A program made the translations under genes and the position numbers. Positions 18,636 to 40,757 of a stretch of DNA of 64,000 nt are shown piece after piece (the first letter of the stretch is position 1; the number at the start of each line of letters is the position of its first letter). Source of the DNA: Escherichia phage HildyBeyeler; sequence record MZ501074; one strand, given 5' to 3'. Under the pieces are notes generated by a model that did not search any database, was not told where the DNA came from, and saw only the letters and a program-made list of their open reading frames with translations.

Positions 18636-19457
18636 ATGGGTAAATTACAAAAACAAATACTACCATATATAGATTATATCCGAGAAATTATAGAGTATAA
18701 TCCCTATACTGGTAAATTATTCTATAAGCCTAATAAATATAAGAATAAAACTTGGCATACTTTATATGCTGGGAGAGAAATATGTAGTAAGAACTCTGAT
18801 GGGTACATCAGAGTTAGTTTGCTCTTAGATAATAAACCCACAATTATTTATGGACACCGAATAGCGTGGCTCCTTCACTATGGGGAGGAACCACCTGCTA
18901 TGATTGATCATATAAATACTATACCGTGGGATAATAGAATTATTAACCTAAGAGAGACAAATTTTAAGTTAAACAGACTTAATACTAACAAAACGGTAGG
19001 TGTAGAGCTGCTGCCAGAAGGATTTGTGTACAGCATTACATTAGGTGAAAAGTTTTTTGTATCCCCCGGCTTCCCCACTTTCGAACAAGCTAAAGTGGAA
19101 AGAGAAAAACTAGTAAATGGTTTATGTAATGCAGAAATTGGGAAGCAGACCAATATTCTAATAGACGATGTTAGAGATTTACCTGAAATGTCCATTATTT
19201 GTCGTACAGTTATAGGTGCGCTGGAACTATCAGATGTGTTTAGTTTCACAGGATCCTATTTATTTATGGACTCAGATTTAGGAGATTCAGAGGTACAAGG
19301 AAAAGATTTATTAGATCATATACTATTATTAGGTCAAAGACCCCTAAAAGTGATTCTAGTAACATCTAATCCTGTTGACGCAGAGTACATGAGAGGTACT
19401 CTTACGTCTTATGGATACCGAGAAAATCCCAATAGATTAGAATATGATCTATTTTAA
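18636..19457 (+). CDS. HNH homing endonuclease
   Basis: GHRIAWLLHYGEEPPAMIDHIN...NLRETN HNH signature. Confidence 0.7.
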   Translation: MGKLQKQILPYIDYIREIIEYNPYTGKLFYKPNKYKNKTWHTLYAGREICSKNSDGYIRVSLLLDNKPTIIYGHRIAWLLHYGEEPPAMIDHINTIPWDNRIINLRETNFKLNRLNTNKTVGVELLPEGFVYSITLGEKFFVSPGFPTFEQAKVEREKLVNGLCNAEIGKQTNILIDDVRDLPEMSIICRTVIGALELSDVFSFTGSYLFMDSDLGDSEVQGKDLLDHILLLGQRPLKVILVTSNPVDAEYMRGTLTSYGYRENPNRLEYDLF

Positions 19458-19469
19458 GGAGTAAAAAGA

Positions 19470-19919
19470 ATGAAGGCAGCTTTGCTTTTAGTAGCTGCCC
19501 TTACCTTCAGCTTCAATAGTCATGCGACCTACGACTCAAAGCAGATTGATTGCATTGCAAAAAATATCTACTTCGAAGCACGAGGTGAGGGCATAAAGGG
19601 AATGACGGCGATTGCACACGTTACTAAAAACCGTGTTAACTCTGGTACTTTTCCTGATTCTTACTGTAAAGTAGTATATCAGTCTAACCAGTTCTCTTGG
19701 GTATCTAAGAGACCAAAAGTTGATAAAACTGATGAGGCTTGGAAAACCGCCAAGAATTTAGCTAGAGTGATATACTACGTTGATTCACCACAAGATCCTA
19801 CACATGGAGCGTTATACTTCCATAGTGGTAAAGATAAACCGCGCTGGACAAAGAAGTTTAAGAAAACAACTAAGATTGAGGGACATACATTTTATAAGCC
19901 TGTTGTCACTAAAACTTAA
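19470..19919 (+). CDS. secreted SleB/CwlJ-like cell-wall hydrolase
   Basis: Signal peptide then NIYFEARGE...AIAHVTKNR...CKVVYQSNQFSW motif. Confidence 0.5.
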   Translation: MKAALLLVAALTFSFNSHATYDSKQIDCIAKNIYFEARGEGIKGMTAIAHVTKNRVNSGTFPDSYCKVVYQSNQFSWVSKRPKVDKTDEAWKTAKNLARVIYYVDSPQDPTHGALYFHSGKDKPRWTKKFKKTTKIEGHTFYKPVVTKT

Positions 19920-19987: not shown

Positions 19988-20158
19988 ATGAAAAACTTGA
20001 TCGTCATTGGTGTTAACACTCGCGGTATTCGTACTACGAAAACTGTTAAAACTTCTAACGTTGCTGAGATCACTACGAACCCTAAAAAGTTTGATTTCGC
20101 CAAAGTCTCAGCAGTTATGACAGAACAATCTTTTAACCAAGCGTTAGGAATGAAATAA
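19988..20158 (+). CDS. hypothetical small protein (56 aa)
   Basis: Not in ORF track (under 60 aa); GAGAGGAAG RBS; stop overlaps next ATG as TAATG. Confidence 0.45.
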   Translation: MKNLIVIGVNTRGIRTTKTVKTSNVAEITTNPKKFDFAKVSAVMTEQSFNQALGMK

Positions 20159-20601
20159 TGGGAGAGAATATTTTAGATGTTTTGCGTAGAGCTTTGCAGG
20201 ATTCTAAGTTTAATGGTTCTGATAAAGAAGTCGCTAAAAGCTATCAGACCATAATCGGGGATCTTCAGCGTATTGATAAAGATTTCATCACTTCTGAACA
20301 ATTTGTGTCTTATCTCAAAGCTCAACTAAAAAGCATTAACCAGATGAAAGCTAAACTTCATGGTCAAGATCTTGATAGTTATAGCTTGCAGTCCGCTCAG
20401 TATGAATACATTCTAAATAAGTGGTTGCAGGAGTATCTGCCTCCTCAGTTATCTGATACTGAGATTCGTAAATACTTTGCAGAATTAGTTAAGCTAAACC
20501 CTGGAATTACAAAAGGTATGCTGATGAAAGCGATTAAGGAAGAATTTCCTGGGCGTTATGATGGTGGTACTGCTGCTCAGATTGCTGGCGAATTTAATTA
20601 A
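20158..20601 (+). CDS. hypothetical protein
   Basis: ORF track. Confidence 0.5.
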   Translation: MGENILDVLRRALQDSKFNGSDKEVAKSYQTIIGDLQRIDKDFITSEQFVSYLKAQLKSINQMKAKLHGQDLDSYSLQSAQYEYILNKWLQEYLPPQLSDTEIRKYFAELVKLNPGITKGMLMKAIKEEFPGRYDGGTAAQIAGEFN

Positions 20602-20609
20602 AAATTTAT

Positions 20610-20638
20610 TTGCTAAATGCCTATAAATTCTGTATAAT
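20610..20638 (+). promoter_or_regulatory. sigma70-type promoter
   Basis: TTGCTA-17-TATAAT; drives ORF-free region. Confidence 0.55.
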
Positions 20639-20861
20639 ATATTAATAAATTAGAGAACAGCGGGCCGATTACGCTGAGTGCAGAATCCAAACCGGAGTGC
20701 ATTGAATAGAGTCGGTGGGTTAGTTGTAAAACTAGTACACAGTGGGCGGCAATCCCGGTTAGTGGCTAGAACGTGTAAAATGGGGCGTCTGAAACCTCTC
20801 CCCTAAACTCTTCTCTAGTTTATAAATAGTGGGGTGTGGAAATCACTTATGTAGTAACACT

Positions 20862-20933
20862 GCCGATCTAGTATAAACGGTATTATCAAGCCGTAACTGG
20901 TGGAAGATGTAGGTTCGAATCCTACGATCGGTA
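20862..20933 (+). ncRNA. tRNA-like element (acceptor plus canonical T-arm, poor anticodon arm)
   Basis: GCCGATC/GATCGGT acceptor pairing and GTAGG-TTCGAAT-CCTAC T-arm. Confidence 0.3.
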
Positions 20934-21434
20934 AGAACTGGATAACTGGTGCTTTTAACGTAAAAGCTTCCGAGGTTAGTTGCGCACTGCCTAAACCACG
21001 CGGTAGTTGGTTCCAGACTAACCAACCAGTCTGCTGAATAGTTTTATTACGATTTAACTATGTCCAGGCTAAAGAAGAACTTTAGAAGGTATTCTAGGTG
21101 GTGAAGTTTTTCCTCCATATCGGAGTAGTTTTTCAAGCTACCAACAAAGTGGGAAATGCTGACATGAGAGATGTCACTAATGGTGCACAATAGCACAGGT
21201 AATTCGCGATAACTCCTGTTGAGTAGCAGCAAAAGGCGGGAAGTCATGACCCCAAGCCTAACCGAGTCCTCAATATACCGCAGGACATAACCACTAAGTC
21301 ACCCTGACTTAAACTGGAAAATAATAGACGTTACTGTATTTTGTCTTGAAATACTTAATGAGTGAGACTTATGACTCTCCCGGTATCGTCTGTATTTTTA
21401 AGAGTTTTTACGAGAGTTCTTAAAAATACTTAAA

Positions 21435-21509
21435 CGGGGTGTAGTCTAAGGGAGAGGCAGGAGTCTTCTAAATTCCTTTATGCAGGTTCGAATCCTGTCA
21501 CCTCGGCCA
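21435..21509 (+). tRNA. tRNA-Arg (anticodon TCT)
   Basis: Hand-folded cloverleaf; 7-bp acceptor, loop CTTCTAA, T-loop TTCGAAT, encoded CCA. Confidence 0.7.
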
Positions 21510-21543
21510 ATTTTATTAACTGTAACTAAAACAAAGGAAATAT

Positions 21544-22491
21544 ATGTTTAATACTAAAAATATGAAAGAACTGACTTCTGAGCAAAAAGTAATTCGCACT
21601 ATTAAACGTTGGGGTATTGGTTCTGTAGTTGGTTTAGCAGGTTTAATCCTAGCTTTTAATTCATATACTATTGTTTCTGATGGTACAGTTAAAACCCAAA
21701 CATTTCTGGGTAAAGTAGATCCTAACCCAGTATTACCTGGTTTCCATCTTGTAAACCCATTTGCATCTTTCGATACTTTTAGTACAAAAGATATTGCTGT
21801 AAAATTAGATAAACTTCAGGTTCCTAGCCAGGATAAGTTTAAATCCACTGTTGACCTGACTGTTATGTTGCAGTTTGATGGTTCTAAGGCACCGATCAAC
21901 CGTATTAATGCAGGTACTCAGGATCAGGCGTTAGACAAATATGTTACTGAAAAATTACTGTCTACCATCCGTGAGTTTGGTAAGTCTGTACCTAAAGCAC
22001 AAGATTTGTTTGATGCTAAAATTCAAGCACAATTACAAACTGCAATTCAACAGGAAGTTGAAGAGTATGCACGCCCTTATGGTTACACAGTTAAGCAAGT
22101 GTTCCTTCAGGATATTACATTGCCACCGGTAATTATGGAACAGGTACAGAATACCAAAGTTCGTGAAGAACAAGTTAATGCTGCGAAAGCTGAATTGGCT
22201 CGTGTTGAACAAGAAGCACAGCAGAAGGTTAAACAAGCAGAAGCAGATCGTGAAGCTCGTAACAACCAAGCTATTGCAAACGAACGTGATGCAGATGCTA
22301 AACTGTATGCAGCTAAGAAAGAAGCCGAAGCTAACGCCGCTCTGCAACGTACTATTACTCCTGAGATGATTCGCTGGAAACAACTAGAAGTTGAAATGAC
22401 TCGTGCTCAGAAGTATCAAGGTGGTGTGCCTCAGACTGTAGTAGGTACTGGTTACGATGGTCAAATGATCATGGATATGCGTAACAAGTAA
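21544..22491 (+). CDS. SPFH/Band-7 (prohibitin-like) membrane protein
   Basis: N-terminal TM helix, Band-7-like core, long A/E/Q-rich coiled coil. Confidence 0.6.
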   Translation: MFNTKNMKELTSEQKVIRTIKRWGIGSVVGLAGLILAFNSYTIVSDGTVKTQTFLGKVDPNPVLPGFHLVNPFASFDTFSTKDIAVKLDKLQVPSQDKFKSTVDLTVMLQFDGSKAPINRINAGTQDQALDKYVTEKLLSTIREFGKSVPKAQDLFDAKIQAQLQTAIQQEVEEYARPYGYTVKQVFLQDITLPPVIMEQVQNTKVREEQVNAAKAELARVEQEAQQKVKQAEADREARNNQAIANERDADAKLYAAKKEAEANAALQRTITPEMIRWKQLEVEMTRAQKYQGGVPQTVVGTGYDGQMIMDMRNK

Positions 22492-22515
22492 TAGTTACAC
22501 GTAATCTTCGAAGTA

Positions 22516-22556
22516 AGCCCTGTGTTCCCTGGAGAGCGCAGGGCTTTTCTGTTTTA
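22516..22556 (+). terminator. rho-independent terminator
   Basis: AGCCCTG...CAGGGCT stem followed by TTTTCTGTTTT. Confidence 0.65.
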
Positions 22557-22717
22557 AGGTAGAGGATAAGTGTGTCTCTTTGGTCACTCAGCTATGACAA
22601 ATACTTTACACTATATCACATTGAAAATCAAGTGGGGATAACAATTTTGGGGTCTATCCACTTACCTGCTACCCTTAAGCATCCTGTTATTTTCCTCTAA
22701 AAAGTTAAAAAATTCAA

Positions 22718-22746
22718 TTGCTTGAATGCTAAATTCTCTGTATAAT
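22718..22746 (+). promoter_or_regulatory. sigma70-type promoter
   Basis: TTGCTT-17-TATAAT. Confidence 0.6.
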
Positions 22747-22778
22747 ATACTTATAAATTTGAGAGAGAGGAATCTAGT

Positions 22779-23297
22779 ATGACTGTTGATGAACTAACAG
22801 AACATCTCTTATCTAGAGGGTTTGATACAGATAAGTATCATTGCTGGTTAAGTCCGGAAGGATGGCTAACAGTCCCGTTGTATGACTTCTCTGGGATGTT
22901 GAGAGGCTATCAGACTTATAATCCTTCTGCTCCAAAAGGTCATGGTAAGTGCCCCTTTGAAGCTAAATATTTTACTTATTCAACTACACAGTGTGTATGG
23001 GGATTAGAAACTCTCAATGGAGATGAAAAAGTAGTATTGATTGCTGAATCTGTATTTAAGGCAGTTGCGTTACATAACGCTGGTTATCCAGCCCTGGCAA
23101 TGTTGGGTTCTTCCCCCGGAAAAGCATTGTTAAAGCAATTGAAATTATTACCTTTTAAATTGGTAGCTGTCGGAGATAATGATCCTGCGGGTGAAAAATT
23201 TGCTAGAAAATTAAACGGCTTTGTTTCTCCTGTAGATGTAGATGAGATGTCTACCGAAAACTTGAAAAATTTTCTTGCTATGAAGCTAAATTTCTAA
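22779..23297 (+). CDS. Toprim-domain protein
   Basis: VVLIAES (Glu) and VGDNDPAGE (DxD) Toprim motifs. Confidence 0.45.
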   Translation: MTVDELTEHLLSRGFDTDKYHCWLSPEGWLTVPLYDFSGMLRGYQTYNPSAPKGHGKCPFEAKYFTYSTTQCVWGLETLNGDEKVVLIAESVFKAVALHNAGYPALAMLGSSPGKALLKQLKLLPFKLVAVGDNDPAGEKFARKLNGFVSPVDVDEMSTENLKNFLAMKLNF

Positions 23298-37675: not shown

Positions 37676-38269
37676 ATGGCTAATAAAAAAGAAGAAAAGA
37701 CTAACCTGTTTCACTCCATTCGCCAATCTAACGAGTATACCTTTTTCTTTGATGAAGAACTTGGTCCGCCTGATGAATACCGTGATTTATCAATGGTACT
37801 TATGCAGGCAAATGAGGACGACGAAATTAATCTGATGATTAATGGCCCTGGTGGCTATGTTGATACCGCTGCACAGTTATCTAACTTAATTGCCAATTGC
37901 CGTGGAACAGTTATAGGACATCTGATTGGTCCTAGTGCTTCTGCTTATTGCACAATTTTCCTATCCTGTCATAGATGGGTAGTACATCCACATGCTACGC
38001 TAATGGGACACACGTTCTCTGGCGGATTCTGTGAGAAAGGTCAAGAAATCAAGAAAGCCTATGAATCTTACAACAAGTTTGTAGAAGATATGATGCTAGA
38101 TGTCTACTATCCGTTCTTCTCAATAGATGAAATCGACGAGATGGTAAAAGACAACAAAAATATCTATCTAGATAGCAAGGAAATTCATAAGCGTATTGAA
38201 ATCTTGGCAAAATATCGATCTGAGCAATATAATAAAGCCCAGTTACCTCAATCCTGGGGGCACAACTAA
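37676..38269 (+). CDS. ClpP-family serine peptidase-like protein
   Basis: INGPGGYV, GPSASAY (Ser) and HPHATLMGH (His) in ClpP order. Confidence 0.45.
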   Translation: MANKKEEKTNLFHSIRQSNEYTFFFDEELGPPDEYRDLSMVLMQANEDDEINLMINGPGGYVDTAAQLSNLIANCRGTVIGHLIGPSASAYCTIFLSCHRWVVHPHATLMGHTFSGGFCEKGQEIKKAYESYNKFVEDMMLDVYYPFFSIDEIDEMVKDNKNIYLDSKEIHKRIEILAKYRSEQYNKAQLPQSWGHN

Positions 38270-38285
38270 GAGTAAGTAGTTTTAA

Positions 38286-38316
38286 GCCAGGGTTTAACGA
38301 CCCTGGCCTTTCTTTT
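38286..38316 (+). terminator. rho-independent terminator
   Basis: GCCAGGGT...ACCCTGGC stem followed by CTTTCTTTT. Confidence 0.65.
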
Positions 38317-38378
38317 ATCTAAAATTCTTCTTGACAACGACATAATTTTGTGCTCCAAGTGTAACGTTTAAAAACCAA

Positions 38379-38407
38379 TTGAAATTTTCCTCCAAAATTA
38401 GTATAAT
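38379..38407 (+). promoter_or_regulatory. sigma70-type promoter
   Basis: TTGAAA-17-TATAAT; also TTGACA at 38329. Confidence 0.55.
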
Positions 38408-38432
38408 GGTACTGGTTAGAGGAGGTTACAAA

Positions 38433-39089
38433 TTGGAAAAGTTCTTACAATTATTAACAGTACTGCTCCAAGAAGCGAAAGACCCAGCATCGCTTCTTAA
38501 ACGTCTGCTAACTATCTTAGTTGCTGTCATTATTTTCTTATTTGTTAGTAATACTAGTGAGGTGATGTCATTCTTAAAGACTTTCTCCACGTCTGCGGTT
38601 CTACAGGATGTTCAAACTCAAAGGATAAGTAATTTTCCTAACGTAGCTAGAGAAAAGAGCATGGTGCTTTTTTCCCAAACGGGTGCGGATGCTGTTTTTG
38701 TAGTCAAGTATAAACCCGATGCCATTAATGATTATTCTAACATTATTGCATGGGAAAGCAATGCGCAATTAGATAGGGCTGACTTGGCTGATAAAGCGGT
38801 AAATAAGACGTCTGAGCTATATAGACGTCACTTAGACGGCTTTAACTACGCATCGGATTTAAGTGTAAAAGTAAATAAATACATGGGGTTAAATATACCT
38901 GCGTTTAAGAACGTTACTTTTAATTACATATACACTTGTCCGTATTTCAATCTAAACAATATCTATGCTGGATATATTGGTATTGCTTGGAAAGATAATC
39001 CTGTAGATACAGCTGATTCTGAACAGTTCAAGGAATATTTAGCAAAGCTCTGTTCCCCACAACAGAGATCTTTAGGTAGGTCAATATGA
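38433..39089 (+). CDS. holin-like membrane protein
   Basis: TTG 38433 after GAGGAGG (218 codons); TM segment; immediately upstream of endolysin with ATGA overlap. Confidence 0.5.
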   Translation: MEKFLQLLTVLLQEAKDPASLLKRLLTILVAVIIFLFVSNTSEVMSFLKTFSTSAVLQDVQTQRISNFPNVAREKSMVLFSQTGADAVFVVKYKPDAINDYSNIIAWESNAQLDRADLADKAVNKTSELYRRHLDGFNYASDLSVKVNKYMGLNIPAFKNVTFNYIYTCPYFNLNNIYAGYIGIAWKDNPVDTADSEQFKEYLAKLCSPQQRSLGRSI

Positions 39090-39499
39090 GTTTTAAATTT
39101 AGTAAAAGAAGTTTAGATAGATTAAAGGGTGTTCATCCAGATTTAGTAAAAGTAACTCATAGAGCTTTAGAATTAAGCCCATATGATTTTACTATTACAG
39201 AAGGATTACGTTCCTTAGAACAAAGCGCCCAAAATATTAAGAATGGAACCTCGTTTTTAAAAGACCCGAGCAAGTCAAAACACGTACAAGGGCTGGCTGT
39301 TGACTTTGCTCCTCTTAAAAATGGGGAGATTGATTGGAATGATTTAGAATCATTCAAATTAGTGGCAGATGCCTTCTTTAAGGCAGCAGAAGAGCTAGGA
39401 GTAAAGATTAGATGGGGTGGTGATTGGAACCAGAACGGAAGTTATAAGGATGAAATCCAACGTGGTACTTTTGATGGCCCACATATAGAATTGATTTAA
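39086..39499 (+). CDS. lys: endolysin, L-alanyl-D-glutamate peptidase (M15-type)
   Basis: 137 aa; SKSKHVQGLAVDFAP...GGDWN...DGPHIEL zinc-peptidase motifs. Confidence 0.85.
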   Translation: MSFKFSKRSLDRLKGVHPDLVKVTHRALELSPYDFTITEGLRSLEQSAQNIKNGTSFLKDPSKSKHVQGLAVDFAPLKNGEIDWNDLESFKLVADAFFKAAEELGVKIRWGGDWNQNGSYKDEIQRGTFDGPHIELI

Positions 39500-39508
39500 G
39501 TAAAATAC

Positions 39509-39531
39509 GGCGGGAATACTCCCGCCTTTTT
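39509..39531 (+). terminator. rho-independent terminator
   Basis: GGCGGGA-ATAC-TCCCGCC followed by TTTTT. Confidence 0.7.
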
Positions 39532-39574
39532 AGGCAAAGGGGGCTTTAATAACTTTTGAAGATAGGAGAAAGCC

Positions 39575-39991
39575 ATGTTTGCAGAACTATTCACTACGAT
39601 GCTGCTAGGTATCTGGAAAATAAGTCTAGTAGTATTCGTTTTAATAATAGTCTTTACTATCCTTGCACTAACTACCAGAAATATCTTATTAATAAAGATT
39701 ACTCATGGACTAGAGTATATAATTATGGGTTCATTCGGCGTTTGTAAATGCAATTGCCATAGAGATACGAAATATTGTTGGTTATGGATGGAACTAGAGA
39801 ATCCTATATCCATAGCTTTGGCTGTTTCATTCGGTATGATTCTTATGGCCCTTACTCTAGCATTAATACCTTTGATGTTAGCTGGGGGAGTTACAGCGTA
39901 TTTCACCCTTTTATCCCCGATACTTATGTACTCAATTTACCCAATAACTATGTATCTAGTTAGGAAAAGATTTATACATGCAGTAGATTAA
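39575..39991 (+). CDS. hypothetical multi-pass membrane protein
   Basis: ORF track; AGGAGAAAG RBS; several hydrophobic helices. Confidence 0.45.
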   Translation: MFAELFTTMLLGIWKISLVVFVLIIVFTILALTTRNILLIKITHGLEYIIMGSFGVCKCNCHRDTKYCWLWMELENPISIALAVSFGMILMALTLALIPLMLAGGVTAYFTLLSPILMYSIYPITMYLVRKRFIHAVD

Positions 39992-40004
39992 GATAAAAAA
40001 GTAG

Positions 40005-40033
40005 TTGACTTTTAGCCCTAGTTATTATATAAT
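40005..40033 (+). promoter_or_regulatory. sigma70-type promoter
   Basis: TTGACT-17-TATAAT. Confidence 0.6.
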
Positions 40034-40066
40034 ATATACATAAATTAGTTAAGAGAGGTATATATT

Positions 40067-40474
40067 ATGTCTGATCGTTTCTATACTCAAATGGCGGAAC
40101 ATTATAACATGGCTCCATATGAGTTGAACATCGCATTACGTGACCTCGATTCACCAGAGCGTAAAAAACTTGAGAAGAAGGCAGGAACTACTATGTCTAA
40201 AGGCAAAAAGTTAACTCGTCTTGATCTTAATAAAATTTTAACTGAACTTTTGGGTACTGATATTGAAGGTGCTAAATTACCGCTTCTTGTACTAGAGACT
40301 ATGATTAAAAAGGTCAAAAATAAAGAATATAAGAAGGTAGAAGTCCCAGAAGGCAGATTAAAGGCTCCTTATCAGGAAGCATTAACCGAGTGTTTGGGTG
40401 TAAATCTTGATCTGAGCACCGCAACCGTAAAAACTATGAAAAACTTCTTAGAGGCCATTAATAACTATGAGTAA
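40067..40474 (+). CDS. hypothetical protein
   Basis: ORF track; GAGAGG RBS. Confidence 0.45.
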   Translation: MSDRFYTQMAEHYNMAPYELNIALRDLDSPERKKLEKKAGTTMSKGKKLTRLDLNKILTELLGTDIEGAKLPLLVLETMIKKVKNKEYKKVEVPEGRLKAPYQEALTECLGVNLDLSTATVKTMKNFLEAINNYE

Positions 40475-40757
40475 ATTAGTATATCTATTAAAAGGTTCCA
40501 CGTGTCGTCCTTGTGCTCTTTTCGAGCCAGTATTTGATAAAGTAGTCAATGAGTATAATTTGGAAGTCCATAAAGAGACTGATAATACAGAATTAATGCA
40601 GAAATTTGGCGTACGCCAAGTTCCTGTAGTAGTTCTGGCGGATCGCTTACCTAATGGTCGAGTAGAAGCTAATCATATTTTGATTGGACGTCAGCTTCGT
40701 AAAGAAACTATGCACGAAGCTATTAAAAATTTCCTGGATGATAATCCAGAAGGTTAA
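40467..40757 (+). CDS. thioredoxin/glutaredoxin-like protein
   Basis: CRPC CxxC motif in thioredoxin-fold context (VPVVVL). Confidence 0.5.
   Translation: MSKLVYLLKGSTCRPCALFEPVFDKVVNEYNLEVHKETDNTELMQKFGVRQVPVVVLADRLPNGRVEANHILIGRQLRKETMHEAIKNFLDDNPEG

What the first reader, a model, noticed from the sequence alone, without database searches (positions are those of the whole stretch)
21544..22491. SPFH/prohibitin-like membrane protein in the early region
The 315-aa protein has an N-terminal TM helix, a Band-7-like core and a long Ala/Glu/Gln-rich coiled coil. SPFH proteins scaffold membrane microdomains and regulate membrane proteases. A phage copy could remodel the inner membrane for DNA entry or lysis timing.
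Basis: partly seen in the sequence, partly recalled or inferred. Interest (0 to 1): 0.4.

Follow-up and report, generated by a model that had tools for sequence, protein, structure and literature searches.

The report
Phage T5 SPFH membrane-scaffold protein
The gene is real and encodes a membrane-anchored SPFH (stomatin/prohibitin-type) scaffold protein, the counterpart of phage T5 gene T5.080; databases already recognise this, the phage can lose the gene in the laboratory, and its actual job is still unknown.

Summary
Window 21544-22491 (+) is an intact 315-codon gene, 98.7% identical in protein to phage T5 T5.080. The window is a T5-like Tequintavirus.

**What is confirmed**
- Pfam Band_7 scores 69 bits against a cut-off of 23.6.

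**What is wrong or unsupported**
- The common database label 'lipoprotein' is wrong, because the protein has no cysteine.
- It is not an HflK, HflC or flotillin orthologue. QmcA and prohibitin are the nearest relatives, and they are distant.

**Inferred**
- Flanking charges predict the SPFH domain faces the periplasm.

**Biology**
- The gene is dispensable: it scores 'Not Fit' in a published T5 knock-down screen, it is absent from the viable T5 st0 deletion strain, and it is deleted in phage NG_S8.
- Even so, about 440 of 441 T5-like records keep it, with dN/dS of 0.03-0.14.
- It has spread horizontally to T4-like and Grimontviridae phages and to Morganella and Providencia chromosomes.
- It sits beside the anti-retron gene rad, in T5's deletable tRNA-rich region.

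No functional study exists. The finding is correct but already known, and of modest interest.

The parts
20610..20638 (+). Sigma-70-type promoter-like site (TTGCTA-17-TATAAT, 10 of 12 matches). It probably starts the transcription unit tRNA-like, tRNA-Arg, SPFH.
   Evidence: Its position corresponds to promoter 'P 16-17' annotated in T5. It is a consensus match only, and the number of such sites in the region is no higher than in shuffled sequence.
20861..20934 (+). tRNA-like element (ARAGORN calls it tRNA-Ser with anticodon ACT) inside the 940-nt non-coding leader. T5 annotates the equivalent leader as stable 'RNAX'.
   Evidence: (Rfam tRNA, 39 bits).
21435..21509 (+). tRNA-Arg (UCU), 34 nt upstream of the SPFH start codon. 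It is probably co-transcribed with the SPFH gene.
   Evidence: 49.3 bits. The order tRNA-Arg then SPFH is the same in T5, SP15 and NG_S8.
21534..21538 (+). Shine-Dalgarno-like AAGGA, 5 nt before the ATG.
   Evidence: Read directly from the sequence.
21544..22491 (+). SPFH/Band 7 protein gene, 315 codons plus stop. It is the orthologue of T5.080 (YP_006908.1).
21544..21609 (+). Residues 1-22: Lys/Arg-rich N-terminal tail (6 K/R, 2 D/E), predicted to be cytoplasmic.
   Evidence: The positive-inside rule is established knowledge. The E. coli controls of known orientation behave as expected, although HflC is ambiguous.
21610..21675 (+). Residues 23-44: single hydrophobic transmembrane/signal-anchor segment. 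There is no cysteine and no lipobox.
   Evidence: (helix 12-39).
21676..22125 (+). Residues 45-194: alpha/beta SPFH core, including the invariant VPSQDK motif at residues 93-98.
22126..22353 (+). Residues 195-270: one continuous 76-residue helix, 50% Ala+Glu+Gln. It is equivalent to the CC1 wall helix of SPFH cages.
   Evidence: full-length alignments to erlin, PHB and HflK/C.
22360..22413 (+). Residues 273-290: second helix (CC2-like). It contains the invariant W278.
22414..22488 (+). Residues 291-315: C-terminal segment that is highly conserved but modelled with low confidence (Y291 is invariant; G293, V295, P296, T298, G301, Y304, G306, D311 and R313 are at least 90% conserved). It is inferred to form the inter-subunit cap of an oligomer.
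   Evidence: conservation; pLDDT 38-48, two short strands. The cap role is an inference from solved SPFH cages.
22515..22546 (+). Intrinsic terminator hairpin (13-bp stem followed by a T run) that closes the transcription unit. Its loop carries GAGCGCA, which matches the T5 nick consensus Pu-GCGC.
   Evidence: T5 annotates a nick site 44 nt beyond the T5.080 stop.

Best explanation
This is the T5.080 orthologue. It is an early-expressed, non-essential accessory protein of the SPFH (stomatin/prohibitin/flotillin/HflK-C) superfamily.

**Shown**
- The gene is intact, under strong purifying selection, and nearly universal in T5-like phages.
- The fold is a full-length SPFH architecture: N-terminal membrane anchor, alpha/beta core, long Ala-rich helix, second helix, and a conserved C-terminal segment.
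- It belongs to a small, discrete SPFH subfamily. That subfamily is shared with several unrelated virulent phages and with a clade of gammaproteobacterial chromosomal genes.
- It is dispensable in laboratory E. coli.

**Inferred**
- The positively charged N-terminal tail stays in the cytoplasm and the SPFH domain is exported. The protein would then sit on the periplasmic face of the inner membrane. That is the orientation of HflK/C and the topological equivalent of prohibitin, and the opposite of QmcA.
- Like every SPFH protein solved so far, it probably self-assembles into a large ring or cage. In that cage the Ala-rich helices form the wall, the conserved C-terminus forms the cap, and a patch of inner membrane is fenced off.

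**Most likely role (inference)**
T5 destroys the host chromosome early, so the host can no longer renew its own membrane-homeostasis proteins. The most likely job of this protein is to keep inner-membrane function or membrane-protein quality control going in that cell. It would do so by corralling host inner-membrane proteins. An FtsH-type protease or respiratory enzymes are candidate clients, but they are unproven. The benefit would be conditional, depending on host strain, stress or competition, and would not be needed for plaque formation.
For: **Gene and fold**
- The ORF, ribosome-binding site and terminator are in place.
- Pfam Band_7 scores 69.2 bits against a cut-off of 23.6.
- The AF2 model has mean pLDDT 76.
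- Foldseek gives probability 1.00 with 270-310 aligned columns to erlin1/2, PHB1/2, HflK/C, stomatin, QmcA and flotillin.

**Discrete subfamily**
- Only 82 clusters at E <= 1e-30 and 334 at E <= 1e-10 are found among 1.84 billion representative proteins.

**Topology**
- The N-flank carries net +3 and the C-flank 0 in the window protein. Nearly all phage members show +1 to +4 against -1 to +1. The E. coli controls fall in the right direction.

**Oligomer cap**
- The last 25 residues are among the most conserved yet are modelled at pLDDT 38-48 in the monomer. This is what is expected of a segment that folds only between subunits.

**Selection and spread**
- dN/dS is 0.03-0.14 among T5-like orthologues.
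- SPFH at >= 80% identity occurs in 440 records, against 441 for the pre-early gene A1.
- SPFH is 75% identical between the T5-like phage and Grimontviridae phage vB_CsaP_009, where NrdA, NrdB and Hydrolase_2 are only 31-35% identical.
- In a distant T5-like contig SPFH is 60% identical, against ThyA at 30% and RNase H at 43%, with conserved synteny.

**Dispensability**
- The CRISPRi-ART screen scores it 'Not Fit' (PMC11879866).
- It is absent from T5 st0, accession AY692264.
- It is internally deleted in phage NG_S8.

**Cellular relatives**
- These are stand-alone genes in housekeeping contexts. In two lineages they are directly followed by NDH-2-like or Mqo-like membrane flavoproteins.
Against: - No experiment addresses the oligomeric state, topology or partners of this protein, and no multimer prediction could be run.
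- The charge-based topology call is only moderately discriminating. The control HflC scores +2/+2.
- By sequence the nearest solved relative is QmcA, which faces the cytoplasm.
- There is no detectable orthology to HflK or HflC, and no protease, NfeD or second SPFH gene lies beside it. The FtsH link is therefore analogy only.
- T5 lacking the whole region grows well. On a library of cloned defence systems it lost infectivity only on two retrons, and those losses were traced to tRNA-Tyr and ORF75, not to this gene (PMC11555353).
- The neighbouring flavoprotein genes in cellular relatives are lineage-specific. There is no conserved operon.
Confidence: 0.45

Rival explanations
1. Counter-defence factor. 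The SPFH cage would protect the infected cell's inner membrane from host abortive-infection effectors that depolarise or perforate the membrane, or would neutralise some other defence system. On this view it is one more cargo gene of T5's deletable anti-defence region.
For: - The gene lies 288 nt from rad (T5.076, window 22779-23297), which counteracts retrons. It also lies among tRNA genes that counteract tRNA-cleaving effectors.
- It is inside the ~8-kb region missing from T5n, which is AY692264.
- The preprint version reported that T5n also plated less well on AVAST 2, with the determinant not mapped.
- The profile of dispensable in the laboratory, strongly conserved and horizontally mobile is typical of counter-defence genes.
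Against: - Only fragments F6 to F8 of the region rescued phages from retrons. The determinants were tRNA-Tyr, ORF71-73 and ORF75.
- The published version dropped both the AVAST statement and the 'anti-defence island' name, and reports few known anti-defence genes in the region.
- Loss of the whole region did not sensitise T5 to the other cloned systems tested.
- PADLOC gives no match.
- rad is not within 20 kb of the SPFH gene in the Grimontviridae phage.
Confidence: 0.2
2. Lysis-timing or envelope-remodelling helper. The cage would act on the periplasmic face together with holin/antiholin or cell-wall hydrolases, to delay or coordinate lysis.
For: - In T4-like phages the gene sits in the tk-rI region, next to the lysis-inhibition gene rI and to rI.-1.
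- A Hydrolase_2 (SleB-type) cell-wall hydrolase lies within about 1-2 kb of it in T5-likes, in a distant T5-like contig and in Grimontviridae. The T5-like version has a signal peptide.
Against: - The tk-rI interval is a known hyperplastic region full of unrelated accessory genes.
- The hydrolases are only 31% identical where the SPFH proteins are 75% identical, so they did not travel together.
- T5 st0 lacks the gene and is a standard, normally lysing laboratory strain (established use of the strain).
- The screen gave 'Not Fit'.
Confidence: 0.1
3. Superinfection exclusion. An early-made periplasm-facing cage would block inner-membrane passage of DNA from later-arriving phages, or protect against lysis from without.
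For: - It is expressed early, is membrane-anchored, is predicted to be periplasmic, is dispensable for single infections, and is conserved in nature.
- The chromosomal copies in Morganella and Providencia nest within the phage clade in the tree, as expected if a host profits from keeping such a gene.
Against: - No SPFH protein is known to act this way.
- T5 already has a dedicated exclusion lipoprotein, Llp (established knowledge).
- There is no direct evidence.
Confidence: 0.08
4. Cytoplasm-facing QmcA-like scaffold. It would have the same fold and cage but the opposite orientation, acting on the cytoplasmic face of the inner membrane.
For: QmcA is the best sequence match among solved structures (E = 2e-6 for the single sequence; 2.4e-7 for the profile; hhalign probability 96% over 204 columns).
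Against: - QmcA has no N-terminal tail and no N-terminal charge. This family has a 5-24 residue tail that is net positive in nearly all members.
- No NfeD partner gene lies beside it, unlike qmcA-ybbJ.
Confidence: 0.15
5. It is a lipoprotein, as PHROG 200 and many RefSeq records call it.
For: - PHROG 200 is labelled 'lipoprotein' and matches at E = 1.3e-85.
- T5, SP15 and many other records use the same label.
Against: - The protein contains no cysteine at all, so there is no lipobox and no acylation site.
- 25 of the 30 aligned family members also lack cysteine.
- The CRISPRi-ART re-annotation itself flags the name as 'Ambiguous'.
Confidence: 0.01

Closest known systems
E. coli QmcA (stomatin/PHB-type SPFH protein; PDB 8z5g, complex with the NfeD protein YbbJ)
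   Same: - It is the best sequence relative with a solved structure.
- It is about the same length (305 aa).
- It has the same order of elements: TM anchor, SPFH core, Ala/Glu-rich helix.
   Different: - Identity is only about 24%.
- QmcA has no charged N-terminal tail and faces the cytoplasm (established knowledge), whereas this protein is predicted to face the periplasm.
- qmcA is paired with the NfeD gene ybbJ. The phage gene has no such partner.
E. coli HflK/HflC (periplasm-facing SPFH cage around the FtsH protease; PDB 7vhp, 7wi3, 9cz2)
   Same: - Same predicted membrane orientation, N-in with the bulk in the periplasm.
   Different: - There is no sequence-level orthology: no PDB sequence hit, no NCBIfam hit, and hhalign probability of 12% for HflK and 68% over only 42 columns for HflC.
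- It is a single gene rather than an hflK-hflC pair.
- FtsH binding is untested.
Mitochondrial prohibitins PHB1/PHB2 and ER erlins 1/2
   Same: - PHB2 is the second-best sequence hit (E = 9e-5).
- Prohibitin faces the intermembrane space, the topological equivalent of the periplasm (established knowledge).
   Different: - They are eukaryotic and hetero-oligomeric.
- Identity is 14-19%.
Orthologues already annotated in phages: T5.080, 44RR ORF098c, Aeh1 ORF064c, RB43 ORF139c, and GenBank 'SPFH domain-containing protein' or 'prohibitin family protein' in many Salmonella, Cronobacter and Pantoea phages
   Same: They are the same protein family (PHROG 200), 59-99% identical. Their Pfam SPFH hit was published in 2006 (PMC1524935).
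   Different: Nothing of substance. None has been studied functionally. A 2026 paper still states that the reason an SPFH gene is found in a phage 'remains unclear' (PMC13239085).

Membership tests
SPFH / Band 7 superfamily (Pfam PF01145) | Sequence matches the Band_7 profile above Pfam's gathering score | tested here: met
   69.2 bits against a cut-off of 23.6, E = 5.8e-19, residues 52-225 covering profile positions 13-176 of 176.
SPFH / Band 7 superfamily (Pfam PF01145) | Alpha/beta SPFH core fold | tested here: met
   [not shown]
SPFH / Band 7 superfamily (Pfam PF01145) | N-terminal membrane anchor followed by the core, a long C-terminal helical region and a C-terminal cap segment | tested here: met
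   Hydrophobic segment at residues 23-44, helices at 195-270 and 273-290, and short strands at 300-310. Alignments to erlin, PHB and HflK/C are full-length, 270-310 columns.
SPFH / Band 7 superfamily (Pfam PF01145) | Assembly into a large homo- or hetero-oligomeric ring or cage | not testable with these tools
   No multimer prediction was available. The only indirect sign is a conserved C-terminus that the monomer model cannot place.
HflK/HflC modulators of FtsH | Sequence orthology to HflK or HflC | tested here: not met
   No NCBIfam family is matched. HflK/C do not appear among the PDB sequence hits. hhalign gives 12% probability for HflK and 68% over 42 columns for HflC.
HflK/HflC modulators of FtsH | Two adjacent paralogous genes (hflK-hflC) encoding a hetero-oligomer | tested here: not met
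   There is a single copy in the 64-kb window. The neighbours are tRNA-Arg and the Toprim gene rad. E. coli has hflK-hflC in tandem.
HflK/HflC modulators of FtsH | N-in topology with the SPFH domain in the periplasm | tested here: inconclusive
   The charge bias predicts it (+3 against 0; the family behaves likewise). This is a prediction, and the control HflC is ambiguous by the same measure.
HflK/HflC modulators of FtsH | Binds FtsH and modulates its proteolysis | not testable with these tools
   This needs pull-down or substrate-stability assays.
QmcA / stomatin-type SPFH with NfeD partner | Adjacent NfeD-family gene | tested here: not met
   Pfam on the flanking genes gives HNH_3+cREC_REC, Hydrolase_2, DUF7616, YqeY and Toprim_2, with no NfeD. 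The bacterial relatives also lack one.
QmcA / stomatin-type SPFH with NfeD partner | Significant sequence similarity to QmcA | tested here: met
   phmmer E = 2e-6, profile E = 2.4e-7, hhalign probability 96% over 204 columns. Identity is only about 24%, so this is superfamily-level similarity, not orthology.
Flotillin / YqiK | Sequence similarity to YqiK, with a long flotillin-type C-terminal region | tested here: not met
   hhalign probability 6%. Length is 315 aa against 553 aa.
Bacterial lipoprotein (the label in PHROG 200 and RefSeq) | Lipobox with an invariant cysteine at the signal-peptidase II site | tested here: not met
   The protein contains no cysteine.
Known anti-phage defence or anti-defence proteins | Match to a PADLOC model | tested here: not met
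   No PADLOC family at E <= 1.

The most novel reading that the evidence does not exclude
The most novel reading not excluded is a viral membrane-guard. A phage-built SPFH cage on the periplasmic face of the inner membrane would shield the infected cell from membrane-targeting abortive-infection effectors or from attack by competing phages. It would then be a new mechanistic class of counter-defence, carried in T5's deletable tRNA/rad region and traded between T5-like, T4-like and Grimontviridae phages. It could be the unmapped determinant behind the AVAST 2 phenotype reported only in the preprint.
Probability: 0.15. Interest if true: 0.7.

Novelty: already known. Interest (0 to 1): 0.3.

Why it matters
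As a finding it adds little. The SPFH nature of this phage protein family has been in the literature since 2006 and appears in many GenBank records.

What makes it worth a note is the contrast documented here:
- The gene can be deleted from the best-studied T5 laboratory strain.
- Yet essentially every natural T5-like phage keeps it under strong purifying selection.
- It is more conserved than neighbouring enzymes.
- It has moved between unrelated virulent phage families and into Morganellaceae chromosomes.

That pattern points to an important function that shows only under certain conditions at the cell envelope. Because T5 is genetically tractable and SPFH cage structures are now routinely solved, the question is directly testable.

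A practical point: the widespread 'lipoprotein' annotation is wrong and should read 'SPFH domain-containing membrane protein'.

Tried and rejected
1. **NCBIfam and PADLOC scans.** Neither gave a useful match.
2. **Conserved operon partner in 52 bacterial loci.** The one widely shared 'neighbour' cluster was an artefact of the generic ABC ATPase domain, with members of 257-704 aa. The real neighbours are lineage-specific housekeeping genes.
3. **En-bloc transfer of an SPFH + Hydrolase_2 + cREC_REC module.** Rejected for a T5-like/Grimontviridae transfer. The hydrolases are 31% identical and the cREC_REC proteins are not detectably similar by BLASTP, whereas the SPFH proteins are 75% identical.
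4. **Linkage of SPFH with rad outside T5-likes.** Not found within 20 kb in vB_CsaP_009.
5. **Literature.** No paper in the held library combines SPFH with phage T5. Two recent phage essentiality preprints do not mention the gene or T5-like phages. A broad search on SPFH with defence, exclusion or lysis terms returned nothing relevant.
6. **Weak Rfam hits.** The hsp17 thermometer hit inside the CDS and the SpF41 hit over the tRNA-like element (E = 0.18-0.42, far below gathering scores) were treated as chance.
7. **AlphaFold-database fold library.** Not available on the machine.
8. **'Lipoprotein' and 'HflK/C orthologue'.** Both were considered and rejected; see the membership tests.
Full report
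**1. The observation**

- An ATG-initiated ORF of 315 codons occupies exactly 21544-22491 on the + strand.
- An AAGGA Shine-Dalgarno-like motif ends 5 nt before the ATG.
- A 13-bp-stem hairpin followed by a T run lies at 22515-22546, straight after the stop.
- tRNA-Arg lies 34 nt upstream (21435-21509). A tRNA-like element lies at 20861-20934. A TTGCTA-17-TATAAT promoter-like site lies at 20610-20638.
- The gene therefore looks like the last cistron of a promoter, tRNA(s), SPFH, terminator unit.
- Gene G+C (0.390) equals that of the window (0.391).

**2. Where the window comes from**

- The region is 95-97% identical in DNA to T5-like phages. The best match is Escherichia phage vB_EcoS_HZ_ZJUN2.
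- The window runs in reverse orientation relative to the T5 reference.
- The protein is 98.7% identical to T5.080 (YP_006908.1, T5 39791-40738), which RefSeq calls 'lipoprotein'.
- T5 and SP15 carry two or three + strand genes (T5.077-079) between T5.080 and T5.076. The window and ZJUN2 lack them.

**3. What the protein is**

- Pfam Band_7 (PF01145) matches at E = 5.8e-19, 69.2 bits against a gathering score of 23.6, over residues 52-225.
- PHROG 200 matches at 1.3e-85.
- An AlphaFold2 model was built on a 30-sequence alignment (mean pLDDT 76). It shows a helix at 12-39, an alpha/beta core at 41-192, one continuous helix at 195-270, a second helix at 273-290, and two short low-confidence strands at the C-terminus.
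- Foldseek against the PDB gives probability 1.00, with 270-310 aligned columns. E-values are 6e-15 for erlin1/2, 1e-12 for PHB1/2, 4e-12 for HflK/C and 2e-10 for QmcA. Stomatin and flotillin also match.
They lack a heptad pattern. This fits the Ala-rich wall helix of SPFH cages better than a classical coiled coil.

**4. What it is not**

- It is not a lipoprotein. It has no cysteine, and neither do 25 of the 30 aligned relatives.
- It is not an orthologue of an E. coli SPFH protein. NCBIfam gives nothing. Among solved structures only QmcA (2e-6), PHB2 (9e-5), PHB1 and an archaeal stomatin are found by sequence.
- Profile comparison with the four K-12 paralogues gives QmcA 96% over 204 columns, HflC 68% over 42 columns, HflK 12% and YqiK 6%.
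- There is one copy in the window. No NfeD or second SPFH gene lies beside it.
- An exhaustive profile search of 1.84 billion representative proteins finds only 82 clusters at E <= 1e-30 and 334 at E <= 1e-10. This is a small, discrete SPFH subfamily.

**5. Topology (inferred)**

- The 22 residues before the hydrophobic segment carry 6 Lys/Arg and 2 Asp/Glu.
- The 15-residue flanks score +3 on the N side and 0 on the C side.
- Nearly all phage members show +1 to +4 against -1 to +1.
- The E. coli controls of known orientation behave as expected: HflK +2/+1, QmcA 0/+1 and YqiK -2/+3. HflC is ambiguous at +2/+2.
- By the positive-inside rule the tail stays in the cytoplasm and the SPFH domain is exported. 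This is the HflK/C and prohibitin orientation, not the QmcA one.
- I put this at about 70%.

**6. Distribution and evolution**

- tblastn finds the protein in 724 phage records. The groups are:
  - T5-like phages at 88-99% identity;
  - T4-like Straboviridae of Klebsiella, Cronobacter, Enterobacter and Citrobacter at 74-79%;
  - Aeromonas T4-likes at about 60%;
  - Grimontviridae at 75%;
  - Vibrio phages at 31-43%.
- Records with SPFH at >= 80% identity number 440. Records with A1 at >= 80% number 441. The gene is thus essentially universal in Markadamsvirinae. Phage NG_S8, which keeps only the last 42 codons, is a natural exception.
- dN/dS is 0.031 (window against T5), 0.138 (window against ZJUN2) and 0.101 (ZJUN2 against T5). 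Across lineages synonymous sites are saturated.
- Between the window and vB_CsaP_009, SPFH is 75% identical while NrdA, NrdB and Hydrolase_2 are 31-35% identical. That indicates horizontal transfer.
- In a distant T5-like contig the order Hydrolase_2, YqeY, gap, SPFH is conserved. There SPFH is 60% identical, more conserved than ThyA (30%) or RNase H (43%).
- GTDB genomes carry chromosomal homologues in Morganella and Providencia at 56-59% identity. These are stand-alone genes among housekeeping genes, with different neighbours in the two genera. A 31-41% clade occurs in methylotrophs and other gammaproteobacterial MAGs.
- In a neighbour-joining tree without bootstrap, the Morganellaceae copies nest inside the phage clade, next to that distant T5-like phage. 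The MAG clade is sister.
- Cellular relatives have no conserved partner. In two lineages the next gene is an NDH-2-like or Mqo-like flavoprotein.
- SPFH folds are common in viral proteomes generally, in many phages and in giant viruses.

**7. Dispensability and genomic setting**

- In the published CRISPRi-ART screen of T5, T5.080 scored -4.28, 'Not Fit' (PMC11879866, supplementary file 16).
- The T5 st0 genome (AY692264, 113,238 bp) has its deletion junction between T5.068 and T5.081. tblastn confirms that SPFH and the Toprim gene are absent there and present in wild type.
- AY692264 is also the 'T5n' strain of Azam et al. (PMC11555353).
- The missing ~8-kb 'tRNA-rich region' contains tRNA-Tyr, which counters retron-Eco7, and ORF75. 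The preprint called this region the 'anti-defence island', and named ORF75 Rad, corresponding to T5.076.
- In the window rad is 22779-23297, 288 nt downstream of the SPFH stop.
- Only fragments F6 to F8 rescued the deletion phages from retrons. By gene order SPFH would lie beyond F8. I could not verify this, because the figures are not held.
- The preprint also reported lower plating of T5n on AVAST 2, with no determinant mapped. The published version omits this and finds few known anti-defence genes in the region.
- In T4-like phages the gene lies in the tk-rI hyperplastic region.

**8. Mechanism**

- *Shown:* fold, family, membrane anchor, conservation, mobility and dispensability.
- *Inferred:* periplasmic orientation and self-assembly into a cage. 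The C-terminal 25 residues are conserved but cannot be placed in the monomer model. I read this as an inter-subunit cap, as in solved SPFH cages.
- *Best guess at the role:* a phage-supplied membrane scaffold. It would keep inner-membrane function or membrane-protein quality control working after T5 has destroyed the host chromosome, with FtsH or respiratory enzymes as unproven candidate clients.
- *Rivals:* counter-defence, lysis timing, superinfection exclusion, or the opposite (cytoplasmic) orientation.
- No functional study of any phage SPFH protein was found. A 2026 paper says the reason for its presence in a phage 'remains unclear'.

**9. Verdict**

- The structural interpretation is supported.
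- The functional speculation is not supported.
- The SPFH identity of this family was published in 2006 (PMC1524935) and appears in many GenBank records, so the finding is already known.
- It keeps modest interest as an unexplained, strongly conserved, horizontally mobile accessory gene of a model phage.

Noticed in passing
window 22779-23297 (+): The 172-aa Toprim_2 protein next to the SPFH gene is the orthologue of T5.076 (98% identical). This is SP15 ORF75, 'Rad', reported to counteract retrons. Many records mis-annotate it as 'DNA primase'.
   Followed up: partly
window 22491-22779, compared with T5 37954-39720 (L002) and SP15 (L076): T5 and SP15 carry a 1.7-kb block of opposite-strand genes (T5.077-079, with their own promoter) between SPFH and rad. 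The window and phage ZJUN2 lack it. This is a local mosaic difference.
   Followed up: partly
window 22515-22546: The loop of the terminator hairpin after the SPFH gene contains GAGCGCA, which matches the T5 single-strand nick consensus. T5 annotates a major nick at the equivalent position. The terminator and the nick site therefore coincide.
   Followed up: no
window 20602-21434: A roughly 830-nt stretch without a convincing ORF lies between the YqeY-like gene and tRNA-Arg. It contains a tRNA-like element with an odd ACT anticodon (20861-20934). T5 annotates the equivalent stretch as a 719-nt stable 'RNAX' of unknown function.
   Followed up: no
window 19470-19919 (+); L070 3640-4068; L066 5887-6309: A SleB-type cell-wall hydrolase (Pfam Hydrolase_2) lies within 1-2 kb of the SPFH gene in T5-likes, in a distant T5-like contig and in a Grimontviridae phage. 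The T5-like version has a signal peptide. The hydrolases are only 31-40% identical. The gene is labelled 'endolysin', and it scored 'Not Fit' in the T5 screen.
   Followed up: partly
window 18636-19457 (+); L066 5162-5533; L070 11468-11806: A cREC_REC (cyclic-phosphate-processing receiver) domain protein recurs near the SPFH gene in the same three lineages. In the window it is fused to an HNH_3 endonuclease domain. In vB_CsaP_009 it sits near RtcB and RNA ligase genes.
   Followed up: no
window 20158-20601 (+): The YqeY-like protein is only 51% identical to T5.081 but 93% identical to that of phage NG_S8. The SPFH gene 1 kb away is 98.7% identical to T5. This marks a sharp mosaic boundary.
   Followed up: no
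L003 (NZ_JBHSCL010000010.1, 'Flagellimonas marina', 178,077-bp contig); also proteins P0026, P0056 and P0060: Contigs of about 174-178 kb filed under bacterial genomes or as a Klebsiella 'plasmid' carry a 73-78% identical SPFH gene. They have the size of T4-like Pseudotevenvirus-type phage genomes. They are probably phage DNA mis-assigned to bacterial assemblies.
   Followed up: no
L004-L016 (Morganella and Providencia chromosomes): Stand-alone chromosomal homologues (56-59% identical to the window protein; 90% identical between the two genera, with saturated synonymous sites) lie outside prophages. In the tree they group with a distant T5-like phage, which suggests gene exchange between phage and host.
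   Followed up: partly
L018 6815-8149; L029 6917-8245: In Methylococcaceae and Methylophagaceae the chromosomal SPFH homologue is directly followed by an NDH-2-like (Pyr_redox_2) or Mqo/DAO-like membrane flavoprotein gene. This may hint at a link to respiration.
   Followed up: no
L073 (LC788711.1, E. coli phage NG_S8) 2750-3129: This is a natural T5-like phage in which the SPFH gene is replaced by two small ORFs. Only the last 42 codons of SPFH remain.
   Followed up: partly
L065 4891-5722 (Aeromonas phage 31): Directly downstream of the SPFH gene lie a 72-aa protein with a type IV pilin-like N-terminal methylation motif and a DUF1190 membrane protein. This is a run of envelope-directed genes.
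   Followed up: no
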